A DNA stretch of 64,000 bases, taken from NCBI RefSeq assembly GCF_046119375.1, contig NW_027362772.1, positions 279,000,001 to 279,064,000 of the forward strand, given 5' to 3'. The stretch's first letter is position 1; the number at the start of each line of letters is the position of its first letter. The notes beneath the pieces are model-generated. The model worked only from the letters and a program-made list of their open reading frames with translations, was not told the origin of the DNA and did not search any database. Shown one piece after another: positions 10,952-64,000 of this stretch. The position numbers and the translations under genes were made by a program. This DNA is from Phyllobates terribilis. Taxonomy: Eukaryota.

Positions 10952-12135
10952 TGACGCGCCCCCTGGGCCGTGGGGTACCCGGAGCCGGGCCGGTAGACGC
11001 TGGCGGTTGTAGTCACTGTGGCGGTGACCCGGTCCGTGACCCAGGGCGGTCAATCCAACGGTAATTTGTATATATGGATTTTATAATGTCCGACTACGCC
11101 ACCTGTGGAGTGCGGCCAAAGGGGCCGCCGCTGCGGAACAGTCCTCTGAAGCTGGTGGTTTTGCTGCAATGGTATTATTACTCACCACAGGAAGAGTGTA
11201 GCTTCAGGGCAGTGTGGGTGGATGATGGTGGTTGTAGTGCAGGGAGTCAGTAATGAACACAGAGTCCGTGTGATGCAGTCCCAAGATCTTTACTCACAGT
11301 TGTTGCAGTCCAGATTACAGGTACCAGAGCTATCTCACCCGTCGTGCTGTGCGTACTCAGTGAGGGGCTCAGTCCACCCCCAGATAGCTCCGGAGTACTT
11401 AGCAGGACCCCCTTCTGTGTGTCCTTTCTCTGGCCTTCTCCCTGCACCTCACACCCAGTGACACTTCTATCCGGTATCCTCGGGCCTTGGCGGGCGACTT
11501 GTGTTCCGTCCCCTGGGTCCTATGTGGCTACCTTCTTAGTGAGACTGGTGTGGACTTTTGCCTGCAGTACATGAAATGCTGCAGCCTCCGGTTTCTAGTT
11601 GAGCCTTGCTGTTTCTCCTCTAGTTGAGGGACCGGTTCCCCTTATCTGGCCTGACCTCTCTACCTCCTGGTAGCAGCGGGAGTACAGGTGGCCTTCTGCA
11701 CGGCCCGTAGCCCTAGGGTCCCTTCGGTTCCTGGAGCCTTCCTGCTCCCACTCCTCTCTTCTCTCCTTCAGTCCTGGGCCTCCCAGGCTAGGCCCGCCTC
11801 CGGAGCAGAGCTCATGCCGAGCCTCTGCTCCTGTCACTTTTCCTCCTCTGACTGGCTTGCTCTTTCTAAGATGGCTTCCTATTTATACTCTCCCTGTCAT
11901 GTGCTCCCCTAAGCTGCTCCCCTAAGCACCCACTACATAGGATCCTCCCACCAGCTAGGGACCTGGGACTGTGCTCTCCCTTAGGAGCAATCTCGCCCTA
12001 ACCCCACTGCGGGTATGTGTTGGATGCAGGTGTTAGGGTCCCGAGCCATACGCCTTCCTTACCTGAGGGTGAGATACCACACCTCTGGGTGAGATGCAGT
12101 AACTCTGTGGTGACTGCACCCTCAGGGGCGCCACA
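10952..12135 (-). mobile_element. Solo LTR of the tRNA-Ser Gypsy clade inside the hAT transposase; no TSD
   Basis: TGACGCG...GCGCCACA termini and an internal CCGACTACGCCA motif. Removing it together with the adjacent AAGT restores the frame EWSQIRDLCTFLHSFEMAT. Confidence 0.85.
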
Positions 12136-34700: not shown

Positions 34701-35838
34701 TCCGGTAATCTACACACATCCTCATGGTGTTGTCTTTATTTCTGACTAAGACTAGTGGAGCTGTCCAGGGGCTACAGCTATCCCTGATCACCCCAGCCTC
34801 CTTCATGTCTCTAAGCATCCCCTTGGCGTGTTGGTAGTGGGCAGGGGGTACGGGTCGATACCTCTCTTTTATAGGAGGATGGTCTCCCGTGGGGATGTGG
34901 TGTTCTACCCCCTTGACTCGCCCGAAGTCTAACGGGTGTTTACTGAACACTCTCTCGTACTCCTGAACCACCCGATAGACTCCTTGTTTCTGGTGTGAGG
35001 GAGTGGAGTCAGTACCCAGATGTAGTTGCTGACACCAGTCCTCCATGTTTTTCTTAGAGCCGTTACCTTCCTCCGGGTGAGATGGAGGCAAGGGTTCCAC
35101 AGATTGTATAGAATTTTGGTTAATGGTATATAATTTGGCTAGCGTGGCATACCGGGGCAGGTACACTTCCCTCTCCCCGATATTTATTATGCGAACGGGC
35201 ACCCTCCCATGGCGTACATCAACCACCCCCCGTGCTGTCAAAATGGTGGGCCTACTGTCTGAGTAAACTGGTTCTACCATTGCCTGGTAATCCCTACCTC
35301 TCAGACCAATAGCTGCCCGGCACCAAATCATCATTTCACTTTTTGGGGGCATGGCAATAGGAAAAGGGTCACACATTCTTACGCTACCAATCTCACCGCC
35401 GGAGAGTTCCACCTGTTGCCGTCGCATCAGTGCCCGGATCTCTTTCTGGAGCACCCGCTGCTCGCCGGAGCTGGCGTTCTTGGCAACCTGCTGTAAAAGG
35501 AAAATCACCTCTGCAAGACAATTTTCAATTACATTAGTTCCTAGAGTTATTTTTGGGTGACTCTCATGTTTGTCAATATCTACAATGATCAGTCCCTGTG
35601 CTGCCAGTTCGACTCTACCAATTTTGATGGTCACCTCTTTAAATCCGATCTGTGGCACGGGCTGGCCATTGCTGGCGATGATACTCAAGTCGTCGTCAGG
35701 GTAGCGGGTAATATCCGAGTCATTCCAGTACTGCTTAAAGAGCACGTACGGGATGGTGGTGACCTGCGACCCGGTGTCCAGTAGGGCACTCATGGGAATG
35801 CCATCCAGTACCACCGGCAAGACTGGACGTCCTCCCAC
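31783..35838 (-). pseudogene. Pol of element B (PR-RT-RH-IN), split by one nonsense mutation
   Basis: LDTGS, YLDD and YTDAS are in 33436-35838; integrase is in 31783-33411. CAA>TAA at 33436-33438, where C reads AETQDSDP. Confidence 0.93.
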
Positions 35839-35894
35839 ATATCTGTCGCGCCAGTTCGATGGGCCTGGTGATCTTTTTCCTGGGGGTTGGCCCT

Positions 35895-36875
35895 CTACCC
35901 CAGGTTGTGCCCATTTAAAGAACAGTACCTTGCCATATGTCCGGGTTGATTGCAGCGGCGGCAGATGGGTCGTCCGTCCTCGCTGTATCGGTCACTGGGT
36001 CTTCCTCTGGCCGGTGGGGTCCTCCTTGGTCGACGCCACGGGATGTCCTCCGGTCCGGATGCCAGCTGGATCTTCCCTGGGGTGGAAACCTGTAAAGACT
36101 GCACAGTTCGGGTTAGCGCAGCAACGCTCTTAGCTAGCTCTTGGACCTGATGGTGTAGGTCTGGAGCCGGGTCATTGTCCAAAGCCTGCGCATCAGCTCC
36201 CACAGGCCCTGCCGACAAGGGCGCCGCCTCCTGGTGGTAAGTAATAGCTGGGCGCCTGTGGGTCATAACGCCACCCGGTGCCGGTTCTCGGAGCACCCGG
36301 ATGGCTCTGTCCTTGAACTGTGCAAAGCCCAGATGGGGATCCTGTAAGGCCATCGCCCGCAACTGGGTTCGGTGGGCATTACAATACAGTCCCTCTATAA
36401 ATTGTTCAGTCAACAGCCTGTCCTCGTTTCCCACTCCATCAGGGTCGGTCTGCTTAATGGCCCTCAGGGCCTCTTGTAGGTTTAGTGCATAGTCCCTTAT
36501 ACTCTCATGCGCTCGCTGCTTGCACCCGTAGAATCTAAGCTTAATCTCGGCTGAGGTGCAGGTATCAAAGGTATCCTTCAGCCGGGTTAGTATCCCTGCG
36601 ACAGTATTCCTCCCAGGTGGCCAGGATTTTACTTCCCTTTTAGCTGCCCCGGTTAGTTGGGCCACCAGGATGCTCACTTTTTGCTCTTCTGTGAGGGGGT
36701 ACACCTGGAAGAGGCTATCCAGCTTTTCTCTAAAGTCATGCAGGGTAAGTGACTCCCCTGAGTACTGGGGTAGCCAAGCTGCTCCCGGGATATAGGGCAT
36801 GGTGAAGGGCATAACTGCAGCAGCGGTGGCGCTGGCGGGGGTTGAGGCAGTGAAGCTCTCCTCCGTATCCGACAT
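35895..36875 (-). CDS. Gag of element B, 326 aa, with a CCHC knuckle
   Basis: Intact ORF ending CRRCNQPGHMARYC; nearly identical to gag of C. Confidence 0.92.
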   Translation of the reverse strand: MSDTEESFTASTPASATAAAVMPFTMPYIPGAAWLPQYSGESLTLHDFREKLDSLFQVYPLTEEQKVSILVAQLTGAAKREVKSWPPGRNTVAGILTRLKDTFDTCTSAEIKLRFYGCKQRAHESIRDYALNLQEALRAIKQTDPDGVGNEDRLLTEQFIEGLYCNAHRTQLRAMALQDPHLGFAQFKDRAIRVLREPAPGGVMTHRRPAITYHQEAAPLSAGPVGADAQALDNDPAPDLHHQVQELAKSVAALTRTVQSLQVSTPGKIQLASGPEDIPWRRPRRTPPARGRPSDRYSEDGRPICRRCNQPGHMARYCSLNGHNLG

Positions 36876-38829
36876 CTTCCTCCCCGCTAGTGGACCGTGG
36901 CCTACCTTGCGATGATCCTGTTCCGTAGGCCGCGGCTCCGCAGTAGATCGTCAGGGTTGAGGACCTTCCGTCGCGCTCCGGTGACGTCGGCGTCTGCTGG
37001 GCTCCTTCCAGGACCTTACGCAACGTCCGGACGTGAGGCGGGGCTTCAGTTCTCGCGCGCTTTCGAAGTCCACGCCCCTCTTCTTCCCGCGCGGCGTCCT
37101 CAAGATGGCGTCCAACGGTGGGAAAACTCCACGGATGGCGGGAAGAAGGCCGAAGATGGCGCCGGATGGCGGGAAAACTTCGCGGATGGCGGGAAGAAGG
37201 CAGAAGATGGCGCCGGATGGCGGGAAACCTCACCACTGGTAAGTTTGAACAGTCTTTGCTTTTCAGGCACGCAGTACCCGGTGGTTGCGGGCACGAAATC
37301 CTGCCGACTACGCCAAAGTTGACGCGCCCCTGGGCCTGCTGTGTCGCGCAGCGTCTCGCGCACGGGGGCTTACCCGGAACCGGATCAGATGAGGGTTGTA
37401 GTCTCCGAGTGGCGGGGACCCGGTCCGTGCCCAGGGGGTCAGACTCAGTGTGTGGCAGTCTTGATAGATGTTATTTGAGTGTCGACTACGCCACCCGTTG
37501 ATTTGCAGCTATGGAGCTGCCGCTGCAGGGCAGACCGCTGAGGCCGGTGTAGAATTGTGCAGCGTGATAGTATAACCCCCAACGGGAGGGGTATGGCCTC
37601 AGGGCAGCCGACGTGGAAGATGGGGGTAGCAGGAACCACTCAGAGACGGTGCGGTGTAATTCAGGGTCTTTACTGGTAACAACGATAGACCCTCCCGGAG
37701 TACTTGCTAGCGAACGGGGCCTGGTCAGTCCTTGAGCAGATGGGATCTCCCCTGGCCAGGCGGAGTTGTAGGCCTCCCAAACTGACTGTACTCTTCTGGC
37801 TACCTTGCTAGAAGCGGATATAAGTAGCCCACGTCCCTGAGTGTACCGTGTGGTGCTCACCCGTATGGCCGGTGACTCGGGGCCTTCTATTGGCTTCCGC
37901 TCCACGATGGCAGTGCTGGTCCCACACGTGTGACCGTGCCTTCGGGTTTCTGGGCCTGAGGACCTGAAATCCCCTGCCGGTCGGCTTCTGCTGCTGGGTA
38001 AGAGTTAGTCCCCACAGCCTCGGACGCCGGGTCCGGTAAGAAAGCTTCTCAGTCAGGGCGAGCTCTGCAGCTGCCAGCCCCTGACTCGTAGTAGTATTGC
38101 TCCCACTGAGCTCCAGCTGTTTCTTCCTATGACTGTCTCTTGTCTCTACTCTCCTTGACTCCTAACCCTGCTTCAGCCCCGGGTTTATATAGGGGAAGTT
38201 CTTCCCCTCCCAAGACTGGGCAGGAGGTGTGGCATGCACAGGATCCCTGACCAAAGGACCTCCCACCTGCTCTCAGACATAACATCTCTATCACTGTGGC
38301 AACCAGACCCCTGGGGTGTCACATTGGGACCCGGACCTGTCCCTGCCACACTAGGGGAGCCCTGACTTTCCCTTATCTCAGGGGTACCTCTGAAGATGAG
38401 GAGGCCCGAGCCGCCAGTGTCTCCCTATCTCCTGCACAGGCCCTGTCAGTGACCCCCTATCCCCCAGGGAAGAAGACAGTACAATTAGGATGTTACTGTA
38501 ACAAGACAGGGAAAACAGACAGGGTAAACTGAAATGGCAAGCTCACCAAAAATACACTCACAGCCACAAGGGAAAACACAGGGAAAGCAGCAAGCAGCAA
38601 TCCCAAGGTAAACTTCCAACTACTCCAGACAACAGACTCCTTCTCCTCACTCCAGGTTAAGCAGAATGAACTGAACACCAACATCAGCTGAAGGGACATG
38701 TGACTATTTTTAGGGTGGAGCAAGAGATCACCAAGTTTAGCAAGGAAAGCTGACATTAACCCCTGATTGCCCAAAGGAAAAAACAGCATTTAAACAGCAA
38801 AATGACAGGGCCGTCACGAATCATTTAAT

Positions 38830-45842: not shown

Positions 45843-48418
45843 GAGTCATCTCTGCTACATCACTACATTGGATCTCCTACCTACTCAACTCTGCTATATC
45901 GCTGGGCTCTACTACAGTGAGTCCCTTAAACTACTCAACTCTGCTACATTGCTGGGCTCTGCTACATTGCTACAGGTGTGAAGGAGGAGAGGTGCAAACA
46001 AGAGGGACCTGAAGGCCTCTCTCTGCCACATAAGAAGATACAAGTTTTATGAAAGGCACATTTTGCAATTAGGCCCAGAAGCTTTAAATCAAATGTCCAA
46101 CTACTATACTAGACTGAACAGAGAATTTTCTATAAGTTGGATGAATTTATTTAAATACTTTTATGAAATCACAGCCAAAATTCATTGTCTTAGTTTGGAC
46201 ACATTTATGAAATATGTTGGAACTGTAACAAGTTCTTAATATTTTTTAAGACAAATGCATACCCCTGGAAATGTCATTTTAACATTTTACAACCTTATCT
46301 GGCCATGTGGTGTGTGACACATTATCAGATACATCCTGTTTCATTTATGATGGAGGGACTCTAAAAGTCACAAAGCCTATTTTTATAGGGCCATCAGGCA
46401 GACTTACTATTCTTAAAAGGCCAGCAGTCGGCCTTCGCTATTGTTAGAGAGCCATCAGCCGGCTATGCTTTGTTGTTCCCATTATTAACGAGTGGGTCTC
46501 CTATACTGTTATTGCGTATGCAGTGATTGCAAGGGCTGCCAAAAATTCGGACGCAACCCAATACCCCTTTGAAGAGACATAGAGGAAGGTCTTAGTAAAA
46601 AAAATGTTCCCATTATAAAGGAGCGGATCTATTATAGTGGTAATGCCCATGCTGTGACTGCAAAACCCCACTAAGAATTTAAAGACACATAGAGCAGGGG
46701 CACAGTAACAAGTACGACATGTTCCCATTAGAAAGGAGCGGGTGTGCTATACAGTTATAGGGTATGCAGTGAGTCCAACGGCTGACCAAATTTAGGAAAA
46801 ACTCCACTAAGAATTTAAAGACACATAGAGCAGGGCCACAGTAACGAGAAATTCCCATTAGAAAGGAGAGGGTCTCCCATAGTGTTGGCCTATGCAGTGA
46901 ATGCAAGGGCTGCCAAAAATTGGGAGACACTTCAATGCTCCTTGGAAGAGACTTAGAGAGCCTCATAAAAAAATATTCCCATTAGAAAGGAGCGGTTCTC
47001 CTATACTTGTAATGCCCATGCGCTAAGTGTATGTGTGGCACCCCAGGGGTCTGGTTTTCCACAGTAATGTAATGTTATGTCTGAGAGCAGGTGGGAGGTC
47101 CTTTGGTCAGGGATCCTGTGCATGCCACACCTCCTGCCCAGTCTTGGGAGGGGAAGAACTTCCCCTGTATAAACCCGGGGCTGAGGCAGGGTGAGTCAGA
47201 CAAGGAGAGTGGAGAAGAGAAGCAGCATAGGAAACAGCAGAGTTACTAGGAGTCAGGGGCTGGCAGCTACAGAGCTCGCCCTGACTAAGAAGATTCTTTA
47301 CCGGACCCGGAGTCCGAGGCTGTGGGGACTAACTCCTACCCAGCAGCAGAATCCGTCGGGCAGGGGATTTCAGGTCCTCTGGCCCAGAAGCCCGAAGGCA
47401 CGGTCACACGCGTGGGACCAGCACCGCCATCGTGGAGCGGAAGCCATTAGAAGGCCCCGAGTCACCGGCCATACGGGTGAGCACCACACGGTACACTCAG
47501 GGACGTGGGCTACTTACATCAGCTTCTAGCAAGGTAGCCAGAAGAGTACAGTCAGTTTGGGAGGCCTACAACTACGCCTGGCCAGGGGAGATCCCATCTG
47601 CTCAAAGACTGACCAGGCCCCGTTTGCTAGCAAGTACTCCGGGAGGGTCTGTCGTTGTTACCAGTAAAGACCCTGAACTACACCGTACCGTCTCTGAGTG
47701 GTTCCTGCTACCCCCATCATCCACGTCGGCTGCCCTGAGGCCATACCCCTCCCGTTGGGGGTTATACTATCACGCTGCACAATCCCACCATCGGCCTCAG
47801 CGGTCTGCCCTGCAGCAGCAGCCCCCTGGCTGCACTCAACGGGTGGCGTAGTCATCAACCATTTACTACTAATGGACTGCCGTCTAGTTTGACTCCCTGG
47901 GCACGGACCGGGTCACCGCCACGAGACTACAACCCTCCACAGATCCGGCTCCGGGTAAGCTCCCGCATGCGCAGCGCAGCGCGACACAGGCCCAGGGGCG
48001 CGTCAACTTTGGCGTAGTCGGCAGGATTTCGTGCCCGCAACCACCGGGTACTGCGTGCCTGAAAAGCAAAGACTGTTCAAACTTACCAGTGGTGAAGATT
48101 CCCGCCATCCGCGAAGTTTTCCCGCCATCCGGCGCCATCTTCGACCTTCTTCCCGCCATCCGTGGAGTTTTCCCGCCATTGGACGCCATCTTGAGGACGC
48201 CGCGCGGGAAGAAGAGGGGCGTGGACTCCGAAAGCGCGCGAGAACTGAAGCCCCGCCTCACGTCCGGACGTTGCGTAAGGTCCTGGAAGGAGCCCAGCAG
48301 ACGCCGACGTCACAGGAGCGCGACGGAAGGTCCTCAACCCTGACGATCCACTGCGGAGCCGCGGCCTACGGAAGAGGATCATCGCAAGGTAGGCCACGGT
48401 CCACTAGGGGGGAGGAAG

Positions 48419-49399
48419 ATGTCGGATACGGAGGAGAGCTTCACTGCCCCAACCCCCGCCAGCGCTACCGCTGCTGCAGTTATGCCCTTCACCATGCCCT
48501 ATATCCCGGGAGCAGCTTGGCTACCCCAGTACTCAGGGGAGTCACATACCCTGCATGACTTTAGAGAAAAGCTGGATAGCCTCTTCCAGGTGTACCCCCT
48601 CACAGAAGAGCAAAAAGTGAGCATCCTGGTGGCCCAACTAACCGGGGCAGCCAAAAGGGAAGTAAAATCCTGGCCACCTGGGAGGAAGACTGTCGCAGGG
48701 ATACTAACCCGGCTGAAGGACACCTTTAATACCCGCACCTCAGCCGAGATTAAGCTTAGATTCTACGGGTGCAAGCAGCGAGCGCATGAGAGTATAAGGG
48801 ACTATGCACTAAACCTACAAGAGGCCCTGAGGGCCATAAAGCAGACCGACCCTGATGGGGTGGGAAACGAGGACAGGCTGTTGACTGAACAATTTATAGA
48901 GGGTTTATATTGCAATGCCCACCGAACCCAGTTGCGGGCAATGGCCTTACAGGATCCCCATCTGGACTTTGCACAGTTCAAGGACAGAGCCATCCGGGTG
49001 CTCCGAGAACCGGCACCAGGTGGCGTTGTGACCCACAGACGCCCCACTACCACTTACTACCAGGAGGCGGCGCCCTTGTCAGCAGGGCCTGTGGGAGCTG
49101 ATGCGCAGGCTTTGGACAATGACCCGGCTCCAGACCTACACCATCAGGTCCAAGAGCTAGCTAAGAGCGTTGCTGCGCTAACCCGAACTGTGCAGTCTTT
49201 ACAGGTTTCCACCCCAGGGAAGATCCAGCTGGCATCCGGACCGGAGGACATCCCGTGGCGTCGACCAAGGAGGACCCCACCGGCCAGAGGAAGACCCAGT
49301 GACCGATACAGCGAGGACGGACGACCCATCTGCCGCCGCTGCAATCAACCCGGACATATGGAAAGGTACTGTTCTTTAAACGGGCACAACCTGGGGTAG
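48419..49399 (+). CDS. Gag of element C, 326 aa, with a CCHC knuckle
   Basis: Intact ORF ending CRRCNQPGHMERYC. Confidence 0.93.
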   Translation: MSDTEESFTAPTPASATAAAVMPFTMPYIPGAAWLPQYSGESHTLHDFREKLDSLFQVYPLTEEQKVSILVAQLTGAAKREVKSWPPGRKTVAGILTRLKDTFNTRTSAEIKLRFYGCKQRAHESIRDYALNLQEALRAIKQTDPDGVGNEDRLLTEQFIEGLYCNAHRTQLRAMALQDPHLDFAQFKDRAIRVLREPAPGGVVTHRRPTTTYYQEAAPLSAGPVGADAQALDNDPAPDLHHQVQELAKSVAALTRTVQSLQVSTPGKIQLASGPEDIPWRRPRRTPPARGRPSDRYSEDGRPICRRCNQPGHMERYCSLNGHNLG

Positions 49400-49433
49400 A
49401 GGGCCAACCCCCAGGAAAAAGATCACCAGGCCC
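49375..49433 (+). promoter_or_regulatory. Predicted -1 ribosomal frameshift signal: slippery heptamer plus H-type pseudoknot
   Basis: T TTA AAC in the gag frame, 8-nt spacer, stem 1 CCTGGGG/CCCCAGG, stem 2 GGGCC/GGCCC. Confidence 0.75.
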
Positions 49434-49455
49434 ATCGAACTGGCGCGACAGATAT

Positions 49456-52400
49456 GTGGGAGGACGTCCAGTCTTGCCTGTGGTACTGGATGGCATTCCC
49501 ATGAGTGCCCTACTGGATACCGGGTCACAGGTCACCACCATCCCGTACGTGCTCTTCAAGCAGTACTGGAATGACTCGGATATTACCCACTACCCTGACG
49601 ACGACTTGAGTATCATCGCCAGCAATGGCCAGCCCGTGCCACAGATCGGATTTAAGGAGGTGGCCCTCAAAATCGGTAGAGTCGAACTGGCCGCACAGGG
49701 ACTGATCATTGTAGATATTGATAAACATGAGAGTCACCCAAAAATAACTCTAGGAACTAACGTAATTGAAAATTGTCTTGCAGAGGTGATTTTCCTTTTA
49801 CAGCAGGTTGCCAAGAACGCCAGCTCCGGCGAGCAGCGGGTGCTCCAGAAAGAGATCCGGGCACTGATGCAACGGCAACAAGTGGAACTCTCCGGCGGTG
49901 AGATTGGTAGCGTAAGAATGTGTGACCCTTTTCCTATTGCCATGCCCCCAAAAAGTGAAATGATGATTTGGTGCCGGGCAGCTATTGGTCTGAGAGGAAG
50001 AGATTACCAGGCAATGGTAGAACCAGTTTACTCAGACAGTAGGCCCACCATTTTGACAGCACGGGGGGTGGTCAATGTACGCCATGGGAGGGTGCCCATT
50101 CGCATAATAAATATCGGGGAGAGGGAAGTGTACCTGCCCCGGTATGCCACGCTAGCCAAATTATATACCACTAATCAAAATTCTATACAATCTGTGGAAC
50201 CCTTGCCTCCATCTCACCCGGAGGACGGTAACGGCTCTAAGAAAGACATGGAGGACTGGTGTCAGCAACTACATTTGGGTACTGATTCCACTCCCTCACA
50301 TCAGAAACAAGGAGTCTATCGGGTGGTTCAAGAGTATGAGAGAGTGTTTAGTAAACACCCGTTAGACTTCGGGCGAGTCAAGGGGGTAGAACACCGCATC
50401 CCCACGGGAGATCATCCTCCCATAAAAGAGAGGTATCGACCCGTACCCCCTGCACATTACCAACACGCCAAGGGGATGCTTAGAGACATGAAGGAGGCTG
50501 GGGTAATCCGGGATAGCTGTAGCCCCTGGGCAGCCCCACTAGTTTTAGTCAAAAAGAAAGACAACACCATGAGGATGTGTGTAGATTACCGGAAAATCAA
50601 CCGTATCACACACAAGGATGCGTACCCCTTACCAAGGATAGAGGAGTCATTGGCTGCTTTAAGATCTGCTAACTTCTTCTCTACCTTGGATCTCACTAGC
50701 GGGTACTGGCAGGTTCCTGTAGCAGAGGCGGACCGGGAGAAGACCGCATTCACCACCCCGATGGGACTTAGTGAGTTCACCTGCATGCCGTTCGGACTCT
50801 GCAACGCCCCAGGAACCTTCCAACGATTAATGGAGTGCTGTCTGGGCCACAGAAACTTCGAGACGGTCCTGTTGTACCTGGACGATGTCATCGTATACTC
50901 CAAAACTTATGAGGACCACCTGAAACACCTGGCGGAGGTGTTCGAAGCTCTGGCGAGTTACGGCCTAAAGGTGAAACCCTCCAAGTGTCACCTCCTGAAA
51001 CCAAAGGTGCAATACCTGGGACACGTGGTGAGCGCTGACGGAGTGGCTCCCGACCCCGATAAGATCACCGCAATTAAGGGATGGCCAAGCCCCTCCAGCG
51101 TAAAAGAAGTGCGGCAGTTCCTAGGGTTGGTAGGCTACTACCGAAGGTTTATTCCCGGTTTCACCAAAAAGGCAGCGCCTATGCAGGACCTCCTGATAGG
51201 CCAGTCCCGGAAGGCCAAGAACCAGAAGCCGCCCTTCAAATGGGAAGAGCTAGAAGAAGAGTCCTTCCGCCAGCTGAAGATGGCCCTCACGGGGGATGAA
51301 ATCTTGGCGTACCCAGACTATAGCCAGCCCTTCATCCTCTACACCGACGCCAGTAACATCGGGCTAGGAGCCGTACTATCCCAGATTCAGCAGGGGAGAG
51401 AACGAGTGATCTCCTATGCCAGCCGAAAACTGCGACCCACCGAAAGGAACCCCGAGAATTACAGCTCATTTAAGCTAGAGTTCCTGGCCGTGGTATGGGC
51501 AGTCACCGAGCGCTTTAGGCATTACCTCGCTTCTTCCCGGTTCACCGTATACACGGATAACAACCCGTTGATACACCTGGACACGGCAAGACTCGGTGCC
51601 CTGGAGCAGAGGTGGATGGCCCGTCTGTCCAACTACGAGTTCACAATCAAATACCGGGCAGGACGCTCCAATACTAACGCCGATGCCCTGTCCAGGATGC
51701 CCAACCTGCCGGACGAAGGAGAAGATCCGGAGGGACTGGAAGAAGTTGAACTCCCTGCGTTCCACCGTCATGGGACTATCCAGTATTCCCACCGGGTAAG
51801 GGGTAAACAGGCTGCTACGTTGAACCCCTTACCCCACTACAACTGGGCGGAAACGCAAGACAGCGACCCTGCCGTCCGACTGGTGAAGGAGATGCTGACT
51901 CGGCCGGAGGCTCGACTTGAACCAGACGCTCCGGAGGAAGCCAAACAACTATGGGCGGAGAAGAGTCGACTATTCCTTTACAAGGGGAAGTTGTGCCGCA
52001 GAATGGTCAACTCCCAGACGCATGAACTACTCTGGCAAGTAGTGGTGCCACGAAGAGATGCAGCCATGGTGATGGAGGCATACCACGACGGAGCTGGACA
52101 CTTCGGGTGGAAAAAGCTGGAGTTCCTGCTGCGCGAGCGGTTCCACTGGGTAGGCATGAGGGGAACCATCGAGAAGTGGTGCAGAGACTGTGGCCCGTGC
52201 AATCTGAGAAGGAAGGACCGGGCCAGCCAGAAGACTCCCCTGCAGTCCATCGTCACCCGGCAACCGTTGGAACTGGTAGCCTTGGATCATGTAAAACTGA
52301 CCCCAAGCAGAAGTGGCTACGTCTACGCGTTAACCATCGTGGATCATTACTCCCGGTTCTTGGTTGTCGTCCCCGTCAAGGACTTAACGGCTCAAACAGC

Positions 52401-53511
52401 AGCTAGAGCCTTCCAGCAGCACTTCTGCCGTCCACACGGGTACCCGGACCAAGTGCTGACGGACCAGGGACCTGCCTTTGAAGCGGAGGTCTTCCAGGAA
52501 TTCTGCAATCTGTATGGCTGCCGGAAGATAAGGACGACACCCTACCATCCGCAAACTAATGGACTTTGTGAAAAAATGAACCAGGTGGTAATGGATCTGC
52601 TAAAAACATTGCCCCTGGAAGAACGCAGTCTGTGGCCTGAGAAGTTGCCCGATCTGGTGGACCTATACAACCACATCCCGGTAGGTTCCACCAACTGTAC
52701 CCCGGCTTACCTAATGAGGGCGAGACCTGGTAAGTTACCTGTTGACCTGGAAATGGGAGTCCTGACACCTGAGGACACTTCACCAGAAACAGACTGGGAC
52801 ACAGAGAGGCAGCAGCAGTACCGGAGAGTACAAGAGAGCGTGGAGCGAAGTCTCTGTCAGGCTAGGGAAAGACAAGAGAAGACTTACAACCAGTATGCTC
52901 CCGCTGTTCCCCTGGTACCCGGAGAGCAGGTCTTGAAGAGGAAAAGACGGCTCCACAAGTTGGATGACCAGTGGGAGGAGGACCCGTACACCGTACTGCC
53001 CTCAAGCCACGAGAACCCGAAGGTCTGTACCATCAGTAAAGACGGAGGGGAAACCACAGCCATTGTATCCCGGGACCACCTGAAGAAGTGTCCCGAACAA
53101 CTGAGGAACCCTGAAGAGGAACAAGAAGACCATCGACCCGTGGAAGAAAGGGAAGATATGGTTAGTACCGTGCTCGGGGACTTCCCTCAGTCTTGGACTC
53201 AAGTCAATGGTGCAGTTGTGGTACCCGTACTCACCTTCCTCCAACCATCATCCCAAGAACCTACGGAGCAACGGGTAGAGCTGGAAGAACAGCCGGTCCA
53301 GGAGGCAGAAGACTCCACACAAGCAGAACAGGAGAATCAACCCTCTGCTTATAGTGAGCCTGCCGTACCCCTAGTGAGACAAAGAGCCGGTAGACAGCTG
53401 CCCAGTTTACCCTTGACAGCTCCTACACCCTGTAGTTCAGGGCCAGACAGTCAGCTCTGTAGGTCCACTCGGGCCACTAGAGGCCAGTTACCCGCACGCT
53501 GGAGAATTTAA
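49456..53511 (+). CDS. Pol of element C (PR-RT-RNase H-IN), probably expressed by -1 frameshift from gag
   Basis: Uninterrupted 1351-aa frame, -1 relative to gag. Motifs LDTGS, YLDD, YTDAS, HDGAGH...CGPC, LDHV, TDQG, NGLCE. Confidence 0.95.
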   Translation: MGGRPVLPVVLDGIPMSALLDTGSQVTTIPYVLFKQYWNDSDITHYPDDDLSIIASNGQPVPQIGFKEVALKIGRVELAAQGLIIVDIDKHESHPKITLGTNVIENCLAEVIFLLQQVAKNASSGEQRVLQKEIRALMQRQQVELSGGEIGSVRMCDPFPIAMPPKSEMMIWCRAAIGLRGRDYQAMVEPVYSDSRPTILTARGVVNVRHGRVPIRIINIGEREVYLPRYATLAKLYTTNQNSIQSVEPLPPSHPEDGNGSKKDMEDWCQQLHLGTDSTPSHQKQGVYRVVQEYERVFSKHPLDFGRVKGVEHRIPTGDHPPIKERYRPVPPAHYQHAKGMLRDMKEAGVIRDSCSPWAAPLVLVKKKDNTMRMCVDYRKINRITHKDAYPLPRIEESLAALRSANFFSTLDLTSGYWQVPVAEADREKTAFTTPMGLSEFTCMPFGLCNAPGTFQRLMECCLGHRNFETVLLYLDDVIVYSKTYEDHLKHLAEVFEALASYGLKVKPSKCHLLKPKVQYLGHVVSADGVAPDPDKITAIKGWPSPSSVKEVRQFLGLVGYYRRFIPGFTKKAAPMQDLLIGQSRKAKNQKPPFKWEELEEESFRQLKMALTGDEILAYPDYSQPFILYTDASNIGLGAVLSQIQQGRERVISYASRKLRPTERNPENYSSFKLEFLAVVWAVTERFRHYLASSRFTVYTDNNPLIHLDTARLGALEQRWMARLSNYEFTIKYRAGRSNTNADALSRMPNLPDEGEDPEGLEEVELPAFHRHGTIQYSHRVRGKQAATLNPLPHYNWAETQDSDPAVRLVKEMLTRPEARLEPDAPEEAKQLWAEKSRLFLYKGKLCRRMVNSQTHELLWQVVVPRRDAAMVMEAYHDGAGHFGWKKLEFLLRERFHWVGMRGTIEKWCRDCGPCNLRRKDRASQKTPLQSIVTRQPLELVALDHVKLTPSRSGYVYALTIVDHYSRFLVVVPVKDLTAQTAARAFQQHFCRPHGYPDQVLTDQGPAFEAEVFQEFCNLYGCRKIRTTPYHPQTNGLCEKMNQVVMDLLKTLPLEERSLWPEKLPDLVDLYNHIPVGSTNCTPAYLMRARPGKLPVDLEMGVLTPEDTSPETDWDTERQQQYRRVQESVERSLCQARERQEKTYNQYAPAVPLVPGEQVLKRKRRLHKLDDQWEEDPYTVLPSSHENPKVCTISKDGGETTAIVSRDHLKKCPEQLRNPEEEQEDHRPVEEREDMVSTVLGDFPQSWTQVNGAVVVPVLTFLQPSSQEPTEQRVELEEQPVQEAEDSTQAEQENQPSAYSEPAVPLVRQRAGRQLPSLPLTAPTPCSSGPDSQLCRSTRATRGQLPARWRI

Positions 53512-55127
53512 AGTGTATAAATTGTTTTATTTATGTTTTTCTGTGTATTGTTGCTTGTGAATAATTTTGTGTTTCCAGTTGTTTTTAGGAAACCTTGGTG
53601 GATTTACCGGGAATCCTTGTATATAGTTGGAGCGTAACCCAGGATGGACTAGAGACTGTTAAGGACTCGGGGTAGGACAGACCCCTACCTGGTTACGTCT
53701 CCCTGTGTTGGTGAAATGGACACCTTTGCTTTTCTTCAAAGACTGCACCCGGTTGCGGACACGCCGCAACCATCTTATGTGTTTTTCTTATAGTATTGTT
53801 ATTGTTATACTTTGTTATGTTTTTCTAAATGTGTTTAGTCCCGGAGTACTAAATTTCACTAGGGGGGAATGTGGCACCCCAGGGGTCTGGTTTTCCACAG
53901 TAATGTAATGTTATGTCTGAGAGCAGGTGGGAGGTCCTTTGGTCAGGGATCCTGTGCATGCCACACCTCCTGCCCAGTCTTGGGAGGGGAAGAACTTCCC
54001 CTGTATAAACCCGGGGCTGAGGCAGGGTGAGTCAGACAAGGAGAGTGGAGAAGAGAAGCAGCATAGGAAACAGCAGAGTTACTAGGAGTCAGGGGCTGGC
54101 AGCTACAGAGCTCGCCCTGACTAAGAAGATTCTTTACCGGACCCGGAGTCCGAGGCTGTGGGGACTAACTCCTACCCAGCAGCAGAATCCGTCGGGCAGG
54201 GGATTTCAGGTCCTCTGGCCCAGAAGCCCGAAGGCACGGTCACACGCGTGGGACCAGCACCGCCATCGTGGAGCGGAAGCCATTAGAAGGCCCCGAGTCA
54301 CCGGCCATACGGGTGAGCACCACACGGTACACTCAGGGACGTGGGCTACTTACATCAGCTTCTAGCAAGGTAGCCAGAAGAGTACAGTCAGTTTGGGAGG
54401 CCTACAACTACGCCTGGCCAGGGGAGATCCCATCTGCTCAAAGACTGACCAGGCCCCTTTTGCTAGCAAGTACTCCGGGAGGGTCTGTCGTTGTTACCAG
54501 TAAAGACCCTGAACTACACCGTACCGTCTCTGAGTGGTTCCTGCTACCCCCATCATCCACGTCGGCTGCCCTGAGGCCATACCCCTCCCGTTGGGGGTTA
54601 TACTATCACGCTGCACAATCCCACCATCGGCCTCAGCGGTCTGCCCTGCAGCAGCAGCCCCCTGGCTGCACTCAACGGGTGGCGTAGTCATCAACCATTT
54701 ACTACTAATGGACTGCCGTCTAGTTTGACTCCCTGGGCACGGACCGGGTCACCGCCACGAGACTACAACCCTCCACAGATCCGGCTCCGGGTAAGCTCCC
54801 GCATGCGCAGCGCAGCGCGACACAGGCCCAGGGGCGCGTCATATGGGCTGACAAACATTTACCCCTAGGGGGTATACATGAACATACTGTATAAAAAAAA
54901 AATTTTAAGGACATCATAAACACCCTTTAAAAAAATTATGTGGGTGTTCCATCACGGACCACGGTTACCCTGGTGATGTGGTGGTGGAGGATGAGGATGA
55001 GGAGGAGTAGGAAAAGAGCAAATAGCCAAAATCAGGAAGTGTATACCCATGTGTGGGTGTGAAAAGGTGCATGGGAATACACCTCCCAAAAAAAGACAGT
55101 GGATTTGAGTTTATGTTATGCTGCTAT

Positions 55128-58208: not shown

Positions 58209-59939
58209 TAGTGTTGAGCGAGCACTAAAATGCTCGGGTGCTCGAAGCTCGGGCCGAGCTCGCCGTGATACTCGGGTGCTCGACCCGAGCAACGAGCCCA
58301 ATGTTAGTGACGCGCCCCCTGGGACATATTCCTTTTTGAGGGGAATACCCGGCACCGGATCAGATGGGGGGTTGTAGTCTCCGAGCGGCTGTGACCCGGT
58401 CCGTGCCCAGGGCGTCAAACTCAGTGTTATGTGGCAGTCCTACAGATGTTATTAAGAGTTCTTTTGTGTCGACTACGCCACCCGTTGTGATGCGGTCACT
58501 GTGGCCGCCGCTGCAGCAGGGTCCGCTGAGGCTGATGGTGGGTGCGCAGCTTGGTGGGATAACCCCCAACGGGAGGGGTATAGCCTCAGGGGGGACAGGT
58601 GCAGAGGATGGGGGTTGTGGTGGTGCAGTGCAGACGGCAATGAAGACAGAGTCGGGTTGTGCAGTTAAGGGTGTTTACTTACTGCAGATGTTGTACTGGT
58701 CACTCCAGCTTCGAGTGACCACCCGAGCCGTGCTGCGTCCACCAGGTCCTGGATCCAGCCAACCCCCAAACAAGTCCGGAGCGTGGCCCTGAGCTCTCCT
58801 TCTGTCCCGTTCTCTGGCCGTCCCCACCAGTGATCCACCTAGGTCCAGCTCCCTCGGGCCTTCTGTTGGGACACCCTTGGCCTTGGGTTCCCTGACCCTT
58901 CATGTGGTGTGCCTTCGGGGTGGATGTGATGGGTGACCGTGGCAAACGCTGCCCACGGTCTCCGGTCTCTGGCTAGGGTGTGTTTTCTGCCCCCACCAGC
59001 TTGGGTTCCGGTACCCTGTGCCGACTCCTCACCCGGTGCTTTAATTTGGGTTCTTGGGTCCTCTCTGTTTTCCCCTCTGGGTACTCCTTCTCTGCTCCTC
59101 TCTCACTCAGGGTCTTTCTTCTCCTCTGCTCGCTGACTTGTTCTCTGCATCTGACCCTGTTCTTAGTTGGTGCCCACCTTATATACACCCTCTATGTGTG
59201 AGCTCAGGTGACCAGCACCCAATGAGCTCCTATCTTTACCCAGGCTGCTCCCCCTATCTGCCCCTACACTACTTGGGATGTACCACCCCCCTCCCACTCC
59301 AGCCAGGAACAGACTCGGTCGTACCTGCACATTTCTAAGTGGGAGTACCGTCGGCCTGTTCCTCGGAAATGGGATGTGTGTAGTGCATGCAGCCTACCGA
59401 GCTCAGTTTCACACTCCTTCCTTACCCGGGAGTGGAATATCACACCTCTGGGTTGAGGTGCAATACCCCTGTAGCAGCCGAATCCTCAGGGTGCTACATT
59501 CCCCCCTGGTAAATCACAGCACGTCCTCGGGCTGTAAGACATAAATAACACCAAAACATACATTTTTTTTTTTCATAAACATATAAAACAACATATATTA
59601 GCAAATAAAACATTCTCGTCGCCTCTGGCTCCTCCTCCGGTCACTGTGCAACGTGTGACCGGGTACAGTGCGACAGTCTTTCTAGAAAACATAGTTTTCC
59701 TATAAAACCAGTAGGGGGCGCTTTAGGAAGCGCAACTATTTACAGGGGAAGTTGGCCGCTCTCAGTCCTCGGCCAGGTAAAGGGAAGGGAATGGCTGCTC
59801 ACAGTCCTCAGCCTGATATGGATACGGAATAACGGGTGAACAGTTCACTCAGCTGGTCCCAACGGGGACTATATATATGTAGCAACAGTTTCTTTGTACC
59901 CCGGTCGGGTAACTATTTACATCTACTGCTCTGCCGCAC

Positions 59940-60908
59940 TCAACGGCGTCTTCCTCCTGCTCTTTGCTTGTAGCTGGTTGTAACTTCAGACCCGTCCGGG
60001 TCCTCTTGCTCTTCCTCCTCACACCGCAGCTCTTCCTCCGTCAGGCGATGCACATGGAGGGCGTAGGGACCTTTGGCACACTTGTGCCGGGTGAAGGTGA
60101 CCTCGTCCCCGATGTAAAGGTCACGACCTCTGTGTCCCTCCGGTAGGTGGGACTCAACGTCTCTCCTGGTTACGAAGACGTCGCCTAGGGTGTGGTGGTC
60201 TCGGATGAAGCCCCACCCATGCTGCAGGTTAAACTTTATCACAGTCCCGGTGGTGCGGGGACTATGCGCTGCACGGGGGTCTCTCCTGGCCCGGCTCTTC
60301 TGCTCCGCGCTCCTTACTTGAGCTTGCTGTTCCCGGACCCGCCTCTCTCTCCGCTCCCTTGCGAACTCTTCGAGCTGCTGTCGGCAACACTCAGCACGCT
60401 CCGCTGCAGCTGCCCTGGTTTCCTGAGTGAACCCCATTAGATCTTCTCCGGTGGGGTCCCACTCAAACTGTGCTTCCGCTAGCGGGGGCGAGATCCGTGC
60501 CACGGGCTTCGGAGCCGGAATCAGGGGTTCATCCAGGGGTCTTAGTCTCTGCTGCCGTTCCAGCTCATGGTATTCTTCGGGCCAGATGAAGGGCCGACCG
60601 TCCGGCCATGTGAGCTGGCTGAACAAGACCTCCCCCAGGTGTGGCACCCTTGGTTTTACGGGCGCGGGCGCGGTGGTGGTGGCGCCCGGGTTGCCCAGGC
60701 CTTGCGGCCAGGCCTGGGGCACCTGGAAGGTGAAGGGCACCGCTAGGACGGCGGCGCCCTGGGCTACCTGGCCTTGCGGCCAGGCCGGAGGCTCCGCGGA
60801 GGTAGGGGGCGCTGTTGGTGATGCGGCGCCCGGGGGTACTAGGCCTTGCGACCAGGCTGGTGGTATTTCCTGCTTTGTCACGCTCCGGGTCGAGGCGCGT
60901 GACGTCAC
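59940..60908 (-). CDS. Element E ORF2 (322 aa): Pro/Gln-rich repeats, WDPTGEDLMG motif, coiled coil and cold-shock domain (60045-60248)
   Basis: GTVIKFNLQHGWGFIRDHHTLGDVFVTRRDVESHLPEGHRGRDLYIGDEVTFTRHKCAKGPYALHV. The start codon is a GTG overlapping the ORF1 stop. Confidence 0.75.
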   Translation of the reverse strand: MTSRASTRSVTKQEIPPAWSQGLVPPGAASPTAPPTSAEPPAWPQGQVAQGAAVLAVPFTFQVPQAWPQGLGNPGATTTAPAPVKPRVPHLGEVLFSQLTWPDGRPFIWPEEYHELERQQRLRPLDEPLIPAPKPVARISPPLAEAQFEWDPTGEDLMGFTQETRAAAAERAECCRQQLEEFARERRERRVREQQAQVRSAEQKSRARRDPRAAHSPRTTGTVIKFNLQHGWGFIRDHHTLGDVFVTRRDVESHLPEGHRGRDLYIGDEVTFTRHKCAKGPYALHVHRLTEEELRCEEEEQEDPDGSEVTTSYKQRAGGRRR

Positions 60909-61768
60909 AGGGGTCGCTGCGGCGGCTTCCGGTTGGGCCTAGTCCATAGCGGTGACATGGCGGCTACGGGCACAGCAGGGGGACTTTCGGGCTCTGCGAC
61001 GGGGAGCTGGGGCAGGTACGCGGTTTCCCGGTTTGGGGTGTAGGCGTCCCCTTTACCTGCCTCCATGCGTTCGGCTCCCTTCTCGGCGTCGTCTCCGGCC
61101 TTTGGTCCTCCCGCGCCATCCTCAGAGGCGGTCTGTTTCCTCTTCCAGGGTAGCGTGCTCCGTTGACTGGTCTCAGCTTGCTGGGCCATCTCCCGGCTCC
61201 ATTCCGCCAATATCTCGCGCTGTACCCGGGCCATCCTCCTTGCGAGGCCCTCCAGAGCGGTCTGTGCACACTCCCGGTCTCGGGGGAGCTGTGCAAGGAC
61301 CTCCACTAGGCCTAGTGGGGTCGTGGTGTCTAGCAGGCTCCTGACCAACGGGTCGGTGCTGCTCTGCTCTTCCTCCAGCAGGCTCCTGGCCAGCGGGCCG
61401 GTGCTGCTCTGCTCGCCTTCCTCGGTCTCTAGCAGACTCCTGGCCAGCGGGCCGGTGCTGTTCTGCTTTCTCTCCATGTCCGGGTAAGCTCCTCCGCTAC
61501 TCCTCGTTAGACTTCTTGCCTCCGGGTGCGCTCGCTCCAGACTGCTCCAGGCGGCACCCATCTTCGTTCTTTTCTTTCGTCTCCTCCCACTTCGAGGGCG
61601 GTCCCGGGGCAACTCGGTGACTGTCAGCTCCAGGGGCAGTTCTTTCACGCTGACAGACACCTCTAGCATCACAGTCTCTGTTGGTGGGGGCGGTTTCCAC
61701 TTTTGGCGCCATTTTCTGTCCTGGCCCACGATGGGAGGCGGCCTCCTGCCCTCCTTTGGCACGCCCAT
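60905..61768 (-). CDS. Element E ORF1 (287 aa from the first ATG; frame open from 62047): N-terminal block and coiled coil shared with D
   Basis: MGVPKEGRRPPPIVGQDRKWRQKWKPP...LP...PRDRPRSGR aligns with D MCVIKDDKKPPIVGRVPEWRQKHNPP...LP...PWDRPRKGR. Confidence 0.65.
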   Translation of the reverse strand: MGVPKEGRRPPPIVGQDRKWRQKWKPPPPTETVMLEVSVSVKELPLELTVTELPRDRPRSGRRRKKRTKMGAAWSSLERAHPEARSLTRSSGGAYPDMERKQNSTGPLARSLLETEEGEQSSTGPLARSLLEEEQSSTDPLVRSLLDTTTPLGLVEVLAQLPRDRECAQTALEGLARRMARVQREILAEWSREMAQQAETSQRSTLPWKRKQTASEDGAGGPKAGDDAEKGAERMEAGKGDAYTPNRETAYLPQLPVAEPESPPAVPVAAMSPLWTRPNRKPPQRPL

Positions 61769-64000
61769 AATGGCGTCCGCTGCTCTTCCAAGGCGGGAAA
61801 TCTTCGGATTTGGCGGGAAGCGTCGCCCAGTGGCGGGAAACTCTGCAGATGGCGGGAACAAGCTGGAAATGGCGGACAATCGGCGGGAAACGACCTGTGA
61901 TGGGGTCCGATGGCGTGGACCCTCCGGAACCGGCGGGAGACTTCTTTCTGAGGTAAACTTGCACTTTTCTTCAGGCACGCAGTACCCGGGTGTTGCGGGC
62001 ACGTAATCCTGCCGACTACGCCAAAGTTGACGCGCCCCCTGGGACATATTCCTTTTTGAGGGGAATACCCGGCACCGGATCAGATGGGAGTTGTAGTCTT
62101 CCGAGTGGCTGTGACCCGGTCCGTGCCCAGGGTGTCAAACTCAGTTGTATGTGGCAGTCCTACAGATGTTATTAAGAGTTCTATCCTGCCGACTACGCCA
62201 AAGTTGACGCGCCCCCTGGGACATATTCCTTTTTGAGGGGAATACCCGGCACCGGATCAGATGGGGGGTTGTAGTCTCCGAGCGGCTGTGACCCGGTCCG
62301 TGCCCAGGGCGTCAAACTCAGTGTTATGTGGCAGTCCTACAGATGTTATTAAGAGTTCTTTTGTGTCGACTACGCCACCCGTTGTGATGCGGTCACTGTG
62401 GCCGCCGCTGCAGCAGGGTCCGCTGAGGCTGATGGTGGGTGCGCAGCTTGGTGGGATAACCCCCAACGGGAGGGGTATAGCCTCAGGGGGGACAGGTGCA
62501 GAGGATGGGGGTTGTGGTGGTGCAGTGCAGACGGCAATGAAGACAGAGTCGGGTTGTGCAGTTAAGGGTGTTTACTTACTGCAGATGTTGTACTGGTCAC
62601 TCCAGCTTCGAGTGACCACCCGAGCCGTGCTGCGTCCACCAGGTCCTGGATCCAGCCAACCCCCAAACAAGTCCGGAGCGTGGCCCTGAGCTCTCCTTCT
62701 GTCCCGTTCTCTGGCCGTCCCCACCAGTGATCCACCTAGGTCCAGCTCCCTCGGGCCTTCTGTTGGGACACCCTTGGCCTTGGGTTCCCTGACCCTTCAT
62801 GTGGTGTGCCTTCGGGGTGGATGTGATGGGTGACCGTGGCAAACGCTGCCCACGGTCTCCGGTCTCTGGCTAGGGTGTGTTTTCTGCCCCCACCAGCTTG
62901 GGTTCCGGTACCCTGTGCCGACTCCTCACCCGGTGCTTTAATTTGGGTTCTTGGGTCCTCTCTGTTTTCCCCTCTGGGTACTCCTTCTCTGCTCCTCTCT
63001 CACTCAGGGTCTTTCTTCTCCTCTGCTCGCTGACTTGTTCTCTGCATCTGACCCTGTTCTTAGTTGGTGCCCACCTTATATACACCCTCTATGTGTGAGC
63101 TCAGGTGACCAGCACCCAATGAGCTCCTATCTTTACCCAGGCTGCTCCCCCTATCTGCCCCTACACTACTTGGGATGTACCACCCCCCTCCCACTCCAGC
63201 CAGGAACAGACTCGGTCGTACCTGCACATTTCTAAGTGGGAGTACCGTCGGCCTGTTCCTCGGAAATGGGATGTGTGTAGTGCATGCAGCCTACCGAGCT
63301 CAGTTTCACACTCCTTCCTTACCCGGGAGTGGAATATCACACCTCTGGGTTGAGGTGCAATACCCCTGTAGCAGCCGAATCCTCAGGGTGCTACATTAGT
63401 CTATGGAAGACCCGAGCAGTTTTGCGGTGGCACCCCCGGCAGTCTTTTAAAAGCTTAACAAGTGCCCAAAACGATAGTGACAGTGCTCAAATGACATGGG
63501 GACAGCATGGGGATCGCCCCAGGAAGCATTTCTAACCCCCAGGTCATTGCTGTCAACAACGTGGTCAGAGGTATTAAGCCACTTTTAAGGGCTCACAATA
63601 AAACGTTCAAAAACGAAACTGAAACTGCTTTACTGTGAAATATGTTAAGGAAGTTCCTTTCCAGGGTAAAGACTTGTGTATAAGATAAAATAAATAACCC
63701 CCCCAAAAAATACTCCACCACACCTTGGGCTATGTTCACAAGTAGCATTTTTTTATGCGTTTTTGCACTTTTGTATTGCTTTCAACCGTGACAAATGCAT
63801 TCACAGGGAAATGTCATTTTAACATTTTACAACCTTATCAGGCCATGTGCTGTGTGACACATGCATACAGTGCTGAAAGACATGGGAACAGCATGGGGAA
63901 GACCCCTGGAAGCATCTCTGACACCCAGGTCACCGCCTAAAAGTGTGCCCATCAGTAGTGATCCTTGCCGCATCAGAAGATGCAGACTTGCAACTATCCC

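What the first reader, a model, noticed from the sequence alone, without database searches (positions are those of the whole stretch)
62006..62204. Fossil of tRNA pairing at the internal PBS-like site: an in-register 18-nt replacement creates a double PBS
Read in element sense, E is 5' LTR, ACTT, full PBS, then AGAACTC... (the LTR sequence that follows the internal motif), LTR end, ACTT, PBS, leader. In the LTR the motif is TGGCGTAGTCG-ACACAAA-AGAACTC; here it is TGGCGTAGTCG-GCAGGAT-AGAACTC. Exactly 18 nt of tRNA complement replace 18 nt, in register. The duplicated 155 bp has several differences from the two matching LTRs, so it has been inherited as internal sequence. Inference: a tRNA-derived end annealed at the internal motif during an earlier reverse transcription.
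Basis: partly seen in the sequence, partly recalled or inferred. Interest (0 to 1): 0.7.

Follow-up and report, generated by a model that had tools for sequence, protein, structure and literature searches.

The report
Retrotransposons mis-jump to a decoy primer-site
In this frog genome, dozens of unrelated copies of a Gypsy-type retrotransposon carry the same in-register doubled primer site beside a tRNA-like 11-base motif conserved in their LTR, likely because the tRNA-copied DNA end pairs at that motif on a co-packaged copy during reverse transcription, which would leave a readable record of strand-transfer errors and LTR lengthening.

Summary
Element E (58308-63395, minus strand, identical LTRs) belongs to a frog Gypsy clade with a PBS complementary to tRNA-Ser. 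Its U5 carries an 11-12 nt copy of the PBS start, found in 60 of 60 sampled loci. A register-free genome search gave 82 LTR-end junction sites: 73 carry 17-18 nt of tRNA copy, 7 the motif's own tail and 2 a partial tract. That is about 0.2-0.6% of copies. Carriers are scattered over the family tree (35 changes, shuffled mean 35.6), so the event recurs. E's duplicate is 1 edit from another element's LTR and 7 from its own, and 18 events take the segment from a distant LTR type. Best mechanism (inferred): plus-strand strong-stop DNA anneals at the motif on a second minus-strand DNA, recopies the U5 end and tRNA, then transfers normally. Seven elements have both LTRs lengthened. Why the motif is conserved is unresolved. 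New variant of a known kind; interest 0.5.

The parts
62205..63395 (-). 5' LTR of non-autonomous element E (TG...CA, 1191 bp); TATATAA at 63082-63076, AGTAAA at 62576-62571 (likely polyadenylation signal, so the motif is inferred to lie in U5)
62367..62377 (-). Internal PBS-like motif, 11 nt = complement of CCA + discriminator + 3' acceptor-stem strand of tRNA-Ser, 177 nt upstream of the PBS
62201..62204 (-). ACTT spacer between LTR end and first PBS
62183..62200 (-). First PBS: 18 nt of tRNA-Ser complement standing in register in place of motif positions 1-18
62028..62182 (-). 155-bp extra copy of the LTR 3' end; 1 edit from the LTRs of another element (L260/L261), 7 edits from E's own LTR
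62006..62027 (-). Second ACTT spacer and second PBS, followed by the family's ordinary leader
59940..60938 (-). Internal ORF with a cold-shock domain (Pfam CSD, E 4e-8); this ORF and 60905-62134 were scanned and gave no RT, RNase H or integrase hit
59499..59507 (-). Polypurine tract
58308..59498 (-). 3' LTR, normal length, identical to the 5' LTR, motif at 58470-58480; CTAA target duplication at 58304-58307 and 63396-63399
47034..54841 (+). Coding Gypsy relative (PNMA-like gag hit below Pfam's cut-off; RT-RNase H-integrase ORF 49303-53511), single PBS at 48010, motif at 47844 and 54680; likely the kind of element that packages E
30419..38323 (-). Second coding relative, single PBS at 37298-37315, motif at 37483 and 30582
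11091..11101 (-). Same motif near the end of a more diverged LTR; a further one at 44814-44824

Best explanation
The doubled primer site is a rare, recurring structure in a Gypsy clade whose LTR carries a conserved 11-nt PBS mimic, and it likely forms when the tRNA-copied 3' end of plus-strand strong-stop DNA anneals at that mimic on a second, co-packaged minus-strand DNA. Steps: (1) tRNA-Ser primes at the normal PBS (complementarity shown; priming inferred). (2) The plus strand copies LTR, ACTT and 18 nt of tRNA and stops before m1A58 (established for HIV/MLV, assumed here). (3) Its 3' end pairs over 11 nt at the motif on the single-stranded minus strong-stop DNA of the second RNA and is extended across the mismatched tail; a 17-nt end, a partial copy or a one-base slip onto a nearby AT gives the variants (inferred). 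(4) It copies that template's U5 end, ACTT and attached tRNA, making PBS 2 (inferred). (5) It then transfers normally to the first genome's minus strand, which copies it, so no heteroduplex forms and the 3' LTR stays normal (inferred). (6) If a transcript of such an element is later primed at PBS 2, both LTRs are lengthened by one unit (products shown, route inferred).
For: Register-free search (gap 2-14 allowed): 86 hits, 4 not duplications; the other 82 have gaps of 7 or 8 except one of 6, and split 58 with 18 nt, 15 with 17 nt, 2 partial, 7 motif-type (my tally; loci read). Of 42 events whose segment is within 2 edits of their own LTR, 40 are at shift 0 and 2 at +1 (part of this set was found with in-register patterns). 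Recurrence: 35 label changes among 62 carriers and 47 single-PBS LTRs, shuffled mean 35.6, at least 25 forced by well-supported branches; own-LTR distance mean 2.9 against 14.4 to other carriers, 0 of 10,000 permutations as low. Second template: 18 of 82 events differ from their own LTR by more than 20 edits; in L141, L144-L146 both LTRs and the leader are of another family and only the segment is E-type; E's own segment matches another element whose internal region is only about 90% like E's. No heteroduplex: 73 tRNA-type against 7 motif-type, p 6e-15 against 50:50; a heteroduplex PBS is said to segregate 50:50 (PMC4549124, part 1 of 2 read). Commonest architecture: 5' double PBS with normal 3' LTR, 33 loci with that exact pattern, one seen twice. 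Both LTRs lengthened in 7 elements. Same junction in a distant family with an ACC spacer (L262, L268).
Against: No intermediate was observed; all steps are read from integrated copies. Repeated priming at PBS 1 in later generations would also push the ratio towards tRNA-type. L013 has the same rare spacer variant at both spacers although the segment is from another family, which fits an extended minus strand better. L045 has a motif-type 5' junction and a tRNA-type lengthened 3' LTR, which looks like a heteroduplex or two events. Five elements have only the 3' LTR lengthened (L238, L242, L243, L244, L280) and need an extra step. A foreign segment could also come from later recombination with an existing double-PBS RNA.
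Confidence: 0.6

Rival explanations
1. Extended minus strand: the minus strand switches at the PBS onto a second RNA and runs into its U5 as far as the motif, where a second tRNA has primed or blocks; the plus-strand end then anneals there and leaves a 7-nt heteroduplex.
For: Gives the same architecture in one step, including cross-family patches; fits L045 and L013; gives the motif a role as a true tRNA site (11-nt PBS is enough for Drosophila gypsy, PMC1635307 passages).
Against: Predicts about half motif-type junctions; 7 of 80 seen. No LTR ending at the motif in E's clade (0); 2 hits in another LTR type, one not a truncation and one inconclusive.
Confidence: 0.2
2. Two steps: an 11-nt microhomology jump first makes a motif-type duplication or lengthened LTR, and later priming by tRNA at that 11-nt site corrects it to a full PBS.
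For: Motif-type junctions exist (7 sites), including an element with both LTRs lengthened (L207); PBS correction from the primer tRNA is established (PMC4549124).
Against: Precursors should not be about ten times rarer than their descendants when carriers are scattered singly on the tree.
Confidence: 0.13
3. DNA-level unequal crossing-over or slippage between motif and PBS after integration.
For: The two sites share 11 nt and 14 of 18; 25 of 82 segments are identical to their own LTR after homopolymer compression.
Against: Would put the crossover inside the 11 nt, not at nt 17-18; the reciprocal deletion is absent (0) against 73 tRNA-type sites; segments from other elements and families cannot arise in cis.
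Confidence: 0.04
4. Assembly or sequencing artefact.
For: 10.5-Gb repetitive assembly; some contigs are near-duplicates (C89/C204/C359, L206/L228).
Against: Different flanks and target duplications at dozens of loci; E's segment has another element's variants; junction present in short-read contigs.
Confidence: 0.01

Closest known systems
Retroviral plus-strand strong stop at m1A58 and second strand transfer (HIV-1, M-MLV; PMC8599865, passages seen)
   Same: 18 nt of primer tRNA copied into the plus strand, then transfer by PBS homology.
   Different: Here the end lands on an 11-nt mimic inside U5, in natural germ-line copies, repeatedly.
PBS inheritance from the primer tRNA (PMC4549124, part 1 of 2 read)
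   Same: The PBS in progeny records the tRNA; variant single-base PBSs are also seen here.
   Different: The 50:50 heteroduplex outcome is not seen at these junctions, and a duplication is made.
HIV-1 with dual PBS for tRNA-Gly and tRNA-His (Li et al. 1997; title only, in the reference list of PMC11181671) and other laboratory PBS mutants (recalled, not read)
   Same: Two PBSs in one genome.
   Different: Engineered or culture-selected, two tRNAs; here one tRNA, with a 155-bp LTR end between the sites.
Second tRNA sites of Drosophila gypsy and the bipartite PBS of Ty3 (PMC1635307, passages seen)
   Same: Ty3/Gypsy elements with a second 11-nt tRNA-complementary site.
   Different: Those lie near the 3' end of the RNA and, in gypsy, pair with anticodon/T stems; this one lies in the LTR end and pairs with the same 3' end as the PBS.
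Recombination between co-packaged LTR-retrotransposon RNAs (PMC6894440, passages seen)
   Same: Mosaic progeny from two templates.
   Different: The review's scheme has the second transfer within one minus strand; these patches point to a transfer onto a second template at a non-PBS site.
HIV primer activation signal (PMC11181671, passages seen)
   Same: A 5' UTR motif upstream of the PBS that pairs with the primer tRNA.
   Different: PAS pairs with the T-arm, not the acceptor end.

Membership tests
Ty3/Gypsy LTR retrotransposon (coding relatives of E) | pol order RT-RNase H-integrase | tested here: met
   RVT_1 416-575, RNase H 647-778, integrase 915-1083 in ORF 49303-53511
Ty3/Gypsy LTR retrotransposon (E) | TG...CA LTRs, PBS, PPT, short target duplication | tested here: met
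Autonomous element (E) | encodes RT and integrase | tested here: not met
   two longest ORFs give only CSD; 2.5-kb internal region; shorter ORFs not scanned
Named Gypsy clade (e.g. Barthez or V-clade; names recalled) | RT phylogeny with reference elements | not tested
   one search gives unnamed frog and fish relatives only; search found no paper
Plus-strand strong-stop product | tRNA copy ends one base before position 58 | tested here: met
   tRNA-Ser(AGA) gene L275: counting from an added CCA, nt 19 is the A of TTCGA; 58 of 82 sites end at 18, 15 at 17
Plus-strand strong-stop product | m1A58 present on the frog tRNA and stops this RT | not testable with these tools
   shown for HIV/MLV in PMC8599865 only
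Bipartite PBS (Ty3, gypsy type) | second site pairs with a different part of the tRNA and lies at the RNA 3' end | tested here: not met
   motif matches the same 3'-terminal 11-12 nt and lies downstream of the likely polyA signal
Functional second primer site | tRNA anneals and primes at the motif | not testable with these tools
   indirect only: no integrated LTR ending at the motif
Homology-driven DNA duplication | crossover within the shared 11 nt and reciprocal deletions | tested here: not met

The most novel reading that the evidence does not exclude
The U5 motif is a selected second docking site for the tRNA acceptor end and is itself the relic of an older LTR end plus PBS. Mis-transfer followed by priming at the outer PBS is then a ratchet that lengthens LTRs, caught here at every stage: double PBS, lengthened LTR pair, lengthened solo LTR. 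The frog clade's long U5 (polyA-like signal about 375 nt before the PBS in E, against 83-135 nt in five motif-less relatives) would be an old fixed turn of that ratchet.
Probability: 0.25. Interest if true: 0.72.

Novelty: new variant of a known kind. Interest (0 to 1): 0.5.

Why it matters
The genome holds at least 85 integrated records of one defined reverse-transcription error. They give tRNA-copy lengths, mismatch-extension register, evidence that a second template is used, and a direct map of which families share a particle (non-coding E-type segments inside coding elements). They also show a concrete route by which LTRs gain length and internal PBS copies, and raise a testable question about a clade-wide tRNA-complementary U5 motif. 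The events are rare and show no sign of spreading, so the effect on the host is probably nil.

Tried and rejected
The 79 hits for LTR end + 11-mer + ACA first looked like the sister product; of 30 read, 26 were single-base PBS variants and 4 true motif-type junctions. A search for other families' junctions by AT-rich tails returned mostly leader variants; its 30 loci served as a sample. An exact motif-gap-PBS pattern found nothing in metagenome or viral contigs. Six metagenome relatives share the tRNA-Ser PBS but show no upstream motif: best 6-8 of 11, one with only 127 nt upstream. RNA structure as the reason for conservation: the motif can pair with a downstream CTGCCA block in most of 21 diverse U5s, but other blocks are as conserved, no covariation test was run, and E's U5 folds no better than shuffles (z -0.09); left open. 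One search compared two unequal stretches and is uninformative. No RNA holder listed for the stretch; the wide read-laying showed no piece across the junction. L364 (motif context + PBS + leader) had no second LTR end in 9.9 kb, inconclusive. The automatic tract-length column allowed a mismatch and was replaced by literal tallies. No earlier findings. Literature searches found no report of this structure; the library lacks most subscription papers and Repbase notes, and no supplements were read.

Full report
Observation. The window is transposon-rich eukaryotic DNA from a 10.5-Gb assembly; the closest named proteins to its coding Gypsy element are from the poison frog Phyllobates terribilis, 94-97% identical. 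Element E spans 58308-63395 on the minus strand, with identical LTRs, a CTAA target duplication and a polypurine tract. After the 5' LTR come ACTT, an 18-nt PBS, 155 bp of LTR end, ACTT and a second PBS. The junction is as described: nt 18 is tRNA-type and nt 19 is the LTR base that follows motif position 18. A tRNA-Ser(AGA) gene in the genome ends in the matching sequence. Counted from an added CCA, the 11-nt motif covers CCA, discriminator and acceptor strand, and nt 19 is A58. In HIV and MLV the plus strand stops there (PMC8599865, passages).

The motif is a clade feature. All 60 PBS loci sampled from two searches have it 152-179 nt upstream, 53 with 11 of 11 matches; identity to the tRNA falls after nt 11-12, and none of the 60 is doubled. 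It is also in more distant families with other spacers, 156-204 nt upstream, and in other LTRs of the window. Five metagenome relatives at 52-59% protein identity have the same PBS and no motif in about 700 nt upstream. It is one of several conserved U5 blocks and can pair locally, so the reason for its conservation is open.

The junction recurs. The exact junction stands at 14 places. A search that fixed only the LTR end, the 11-mer and a downstream GAACW, with a free gap of 2-14, gave 86 hits. Four are leader variants. Of the other 82, 58 carry 18 nt of tRNA copy, 15 carry 17, 2 a partial tract and 7 the motif's own tail (my tally); all gaps are 7 or 8 but one. Four of the 82 (contigs C204, C359) were not fetched and look like copies of C89. 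Against 52,423 motif sites or 13,016 PBS sites with one leader type this is about 0.2-0.6%. Related families show the same junction, often slipped by one base so that the tRNA copy's final AT sits on an AT of the template. Across all fetched loci there are 94 distinct junctions, 85 after removing 9 second views or 3' twins: 63, 13, 2 and 7 by type. On a tree of 600 nt upstream of the motif (62 carriers, 47 single-PBS LTRs, E clade only) the label needs 35 changes against 35.6 for shuffles (bootstrap not fully settled). One ancestral duplication is therefore excluded.

The segment often has another donor. Of 82 events with the own LTR in view, 25 are identical to it after homopolymer compression, 17 differ by 1-2, 22 by 3-20 and 18 by more than 20. 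In several of the last group both LTRs and the leader belong to another family and only the segment is E-type. E's own segment is 1 edit from both LTRs of an element on C167 and 7 from E's LTR, among 104 distinct LTR segments compared, while that element's interior is about 90% like E's.

Architectures (loci of 6 kb or more): 5' double PBS with normal 3' LTR, 33 loci with the exact pattern (one element seen twice); both LTRs lengthened with a full inner PBS, 7; both lengthened with the motif tail, 1; 5' motif-type or partial with normal 3' LTR, 3; only the 3' LTR lengthened, 5; mixed, 1 (L045); and several lengthened solo LTRs with target duplications (L003, L015, L026). The reciprocal product, LTR motif context joined to a full PBS, is absent in E's clade and found twice in another type, once as a possible deletion.

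Mechanism. Shown: the register, tract lengths, recurrence, foreign donors, lengthened LTRs and the missing reciprocal. Inferred: the plus-strand strong-stop end anneals at the motif on the minus strong-stop DNA of a second packaged RNA, is extended over the mismatch, recopies U5 end, spacer and tRNA, and then transfers normally. This needs no priming at the motif, explains one-segment patches from other families, and predicts no heteroduplex, in line with 73 against 7 (p 6e-15 for 50:50; the 50:50 expectation is from PMC4549124). Later priming at the outer PBS would lengthen both LTRs. I put this at 0.6. The extended-minus-strand route (0.2) fits L045 and L013 better; duplication followed by PBS correction (0.13) fits the motif-type copies; DNA-level recombination (0.04) and artefact (0.01) fit poorly. 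More than one route may operate.

Comparison. It works like retroviral plus-strand transfer and PBS inheritance, misdirected. It is not a bipartite PBS of the Ty3 or gypsy type, whose second sites lie at the RNA 3' end (PMC1635307, passages). A dual-PBS HIV is known from culture (title seen in PMC11181671's references). Ten searches of the held library found no report of a conserved U5 PBS mimic with recurring in-register duplications; older virology papers and Repbase are mostly outside the library. Papers seen: PMC4549124 part 1 of 2; PMC8599865, PMC1635307, PMC11181671, PMC6894440, PMC3832253 and PMC12789967 as passages; others as listings only; no supplements.

Verdict. Real, recurrent and mechanistically informative, but a rare by-product built from known chemistry: new variant of a known kind, interest 0.5. 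The bolder reading, a selected second tRNA site and an LTR-lengthening ratchet of which the motif is a relic, has probability about 0.25 and would deserve about 0.7.

Noticed in passing
L209 (G000:C3:532143000-532151000): Two LTR ends joined head to head as ...GCGTCA-ACTT-(T)AAGT-TGA..., so both keep the ACTT spacer; suggests the unprocessed cDNA end carries 4 nt beyond CA.
   Followed up: partly
L262, L266, L272, L274: PBS followed by further tRNA-Ser complement (about 50 nt in L262) before other sequence resumes: read-through past position 58 that still integrated.
   Followed up: partly
window 59940-60938 (-): The non-coding-type element E carries an ORF with a cold-shock domain (Pfam CSD, E 4e-8, above cut-off); tens of thousands of related LTRs exist (52,423 motif sites).
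   Followed up: no
L239 (G000:C4:807261500-807271000): In both LTRs the bases before the internal motif read TCAACTT like the true LTR end instead of TCAACGGG: a small patch between motif and LTR end.
   Followed up: no
79 sites; L206, L228: Recurrent single-base PBS variants (26 of 30 read), possibly from a variant tRNA-Ser primer.
   Followed up: partly
L363 (G000:C2:938329356-938332380): An LTR whose internal motif matches all 18 nt of the PBS in place, 147 nt before the true PBS.
   Followed up: no
window 16465-21315 and 21379-24066: Chromodomain Gypsy element with a 1375-aa ORF inserted in a 108-110 bp tandem array.
   Followed up: no
window 5614-6639, 9199-10002, 12754-13314: Tc1-type transposase, BED finger and hAT dimerisation fragments among nested LTR pieces.
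   Followed up: no
G000:C1:31095126-31101344; L031, L046: Tandem LTR-internal-LTR arrays of the family at about 3.1-3.8 kb spacing.
   Followed up: no
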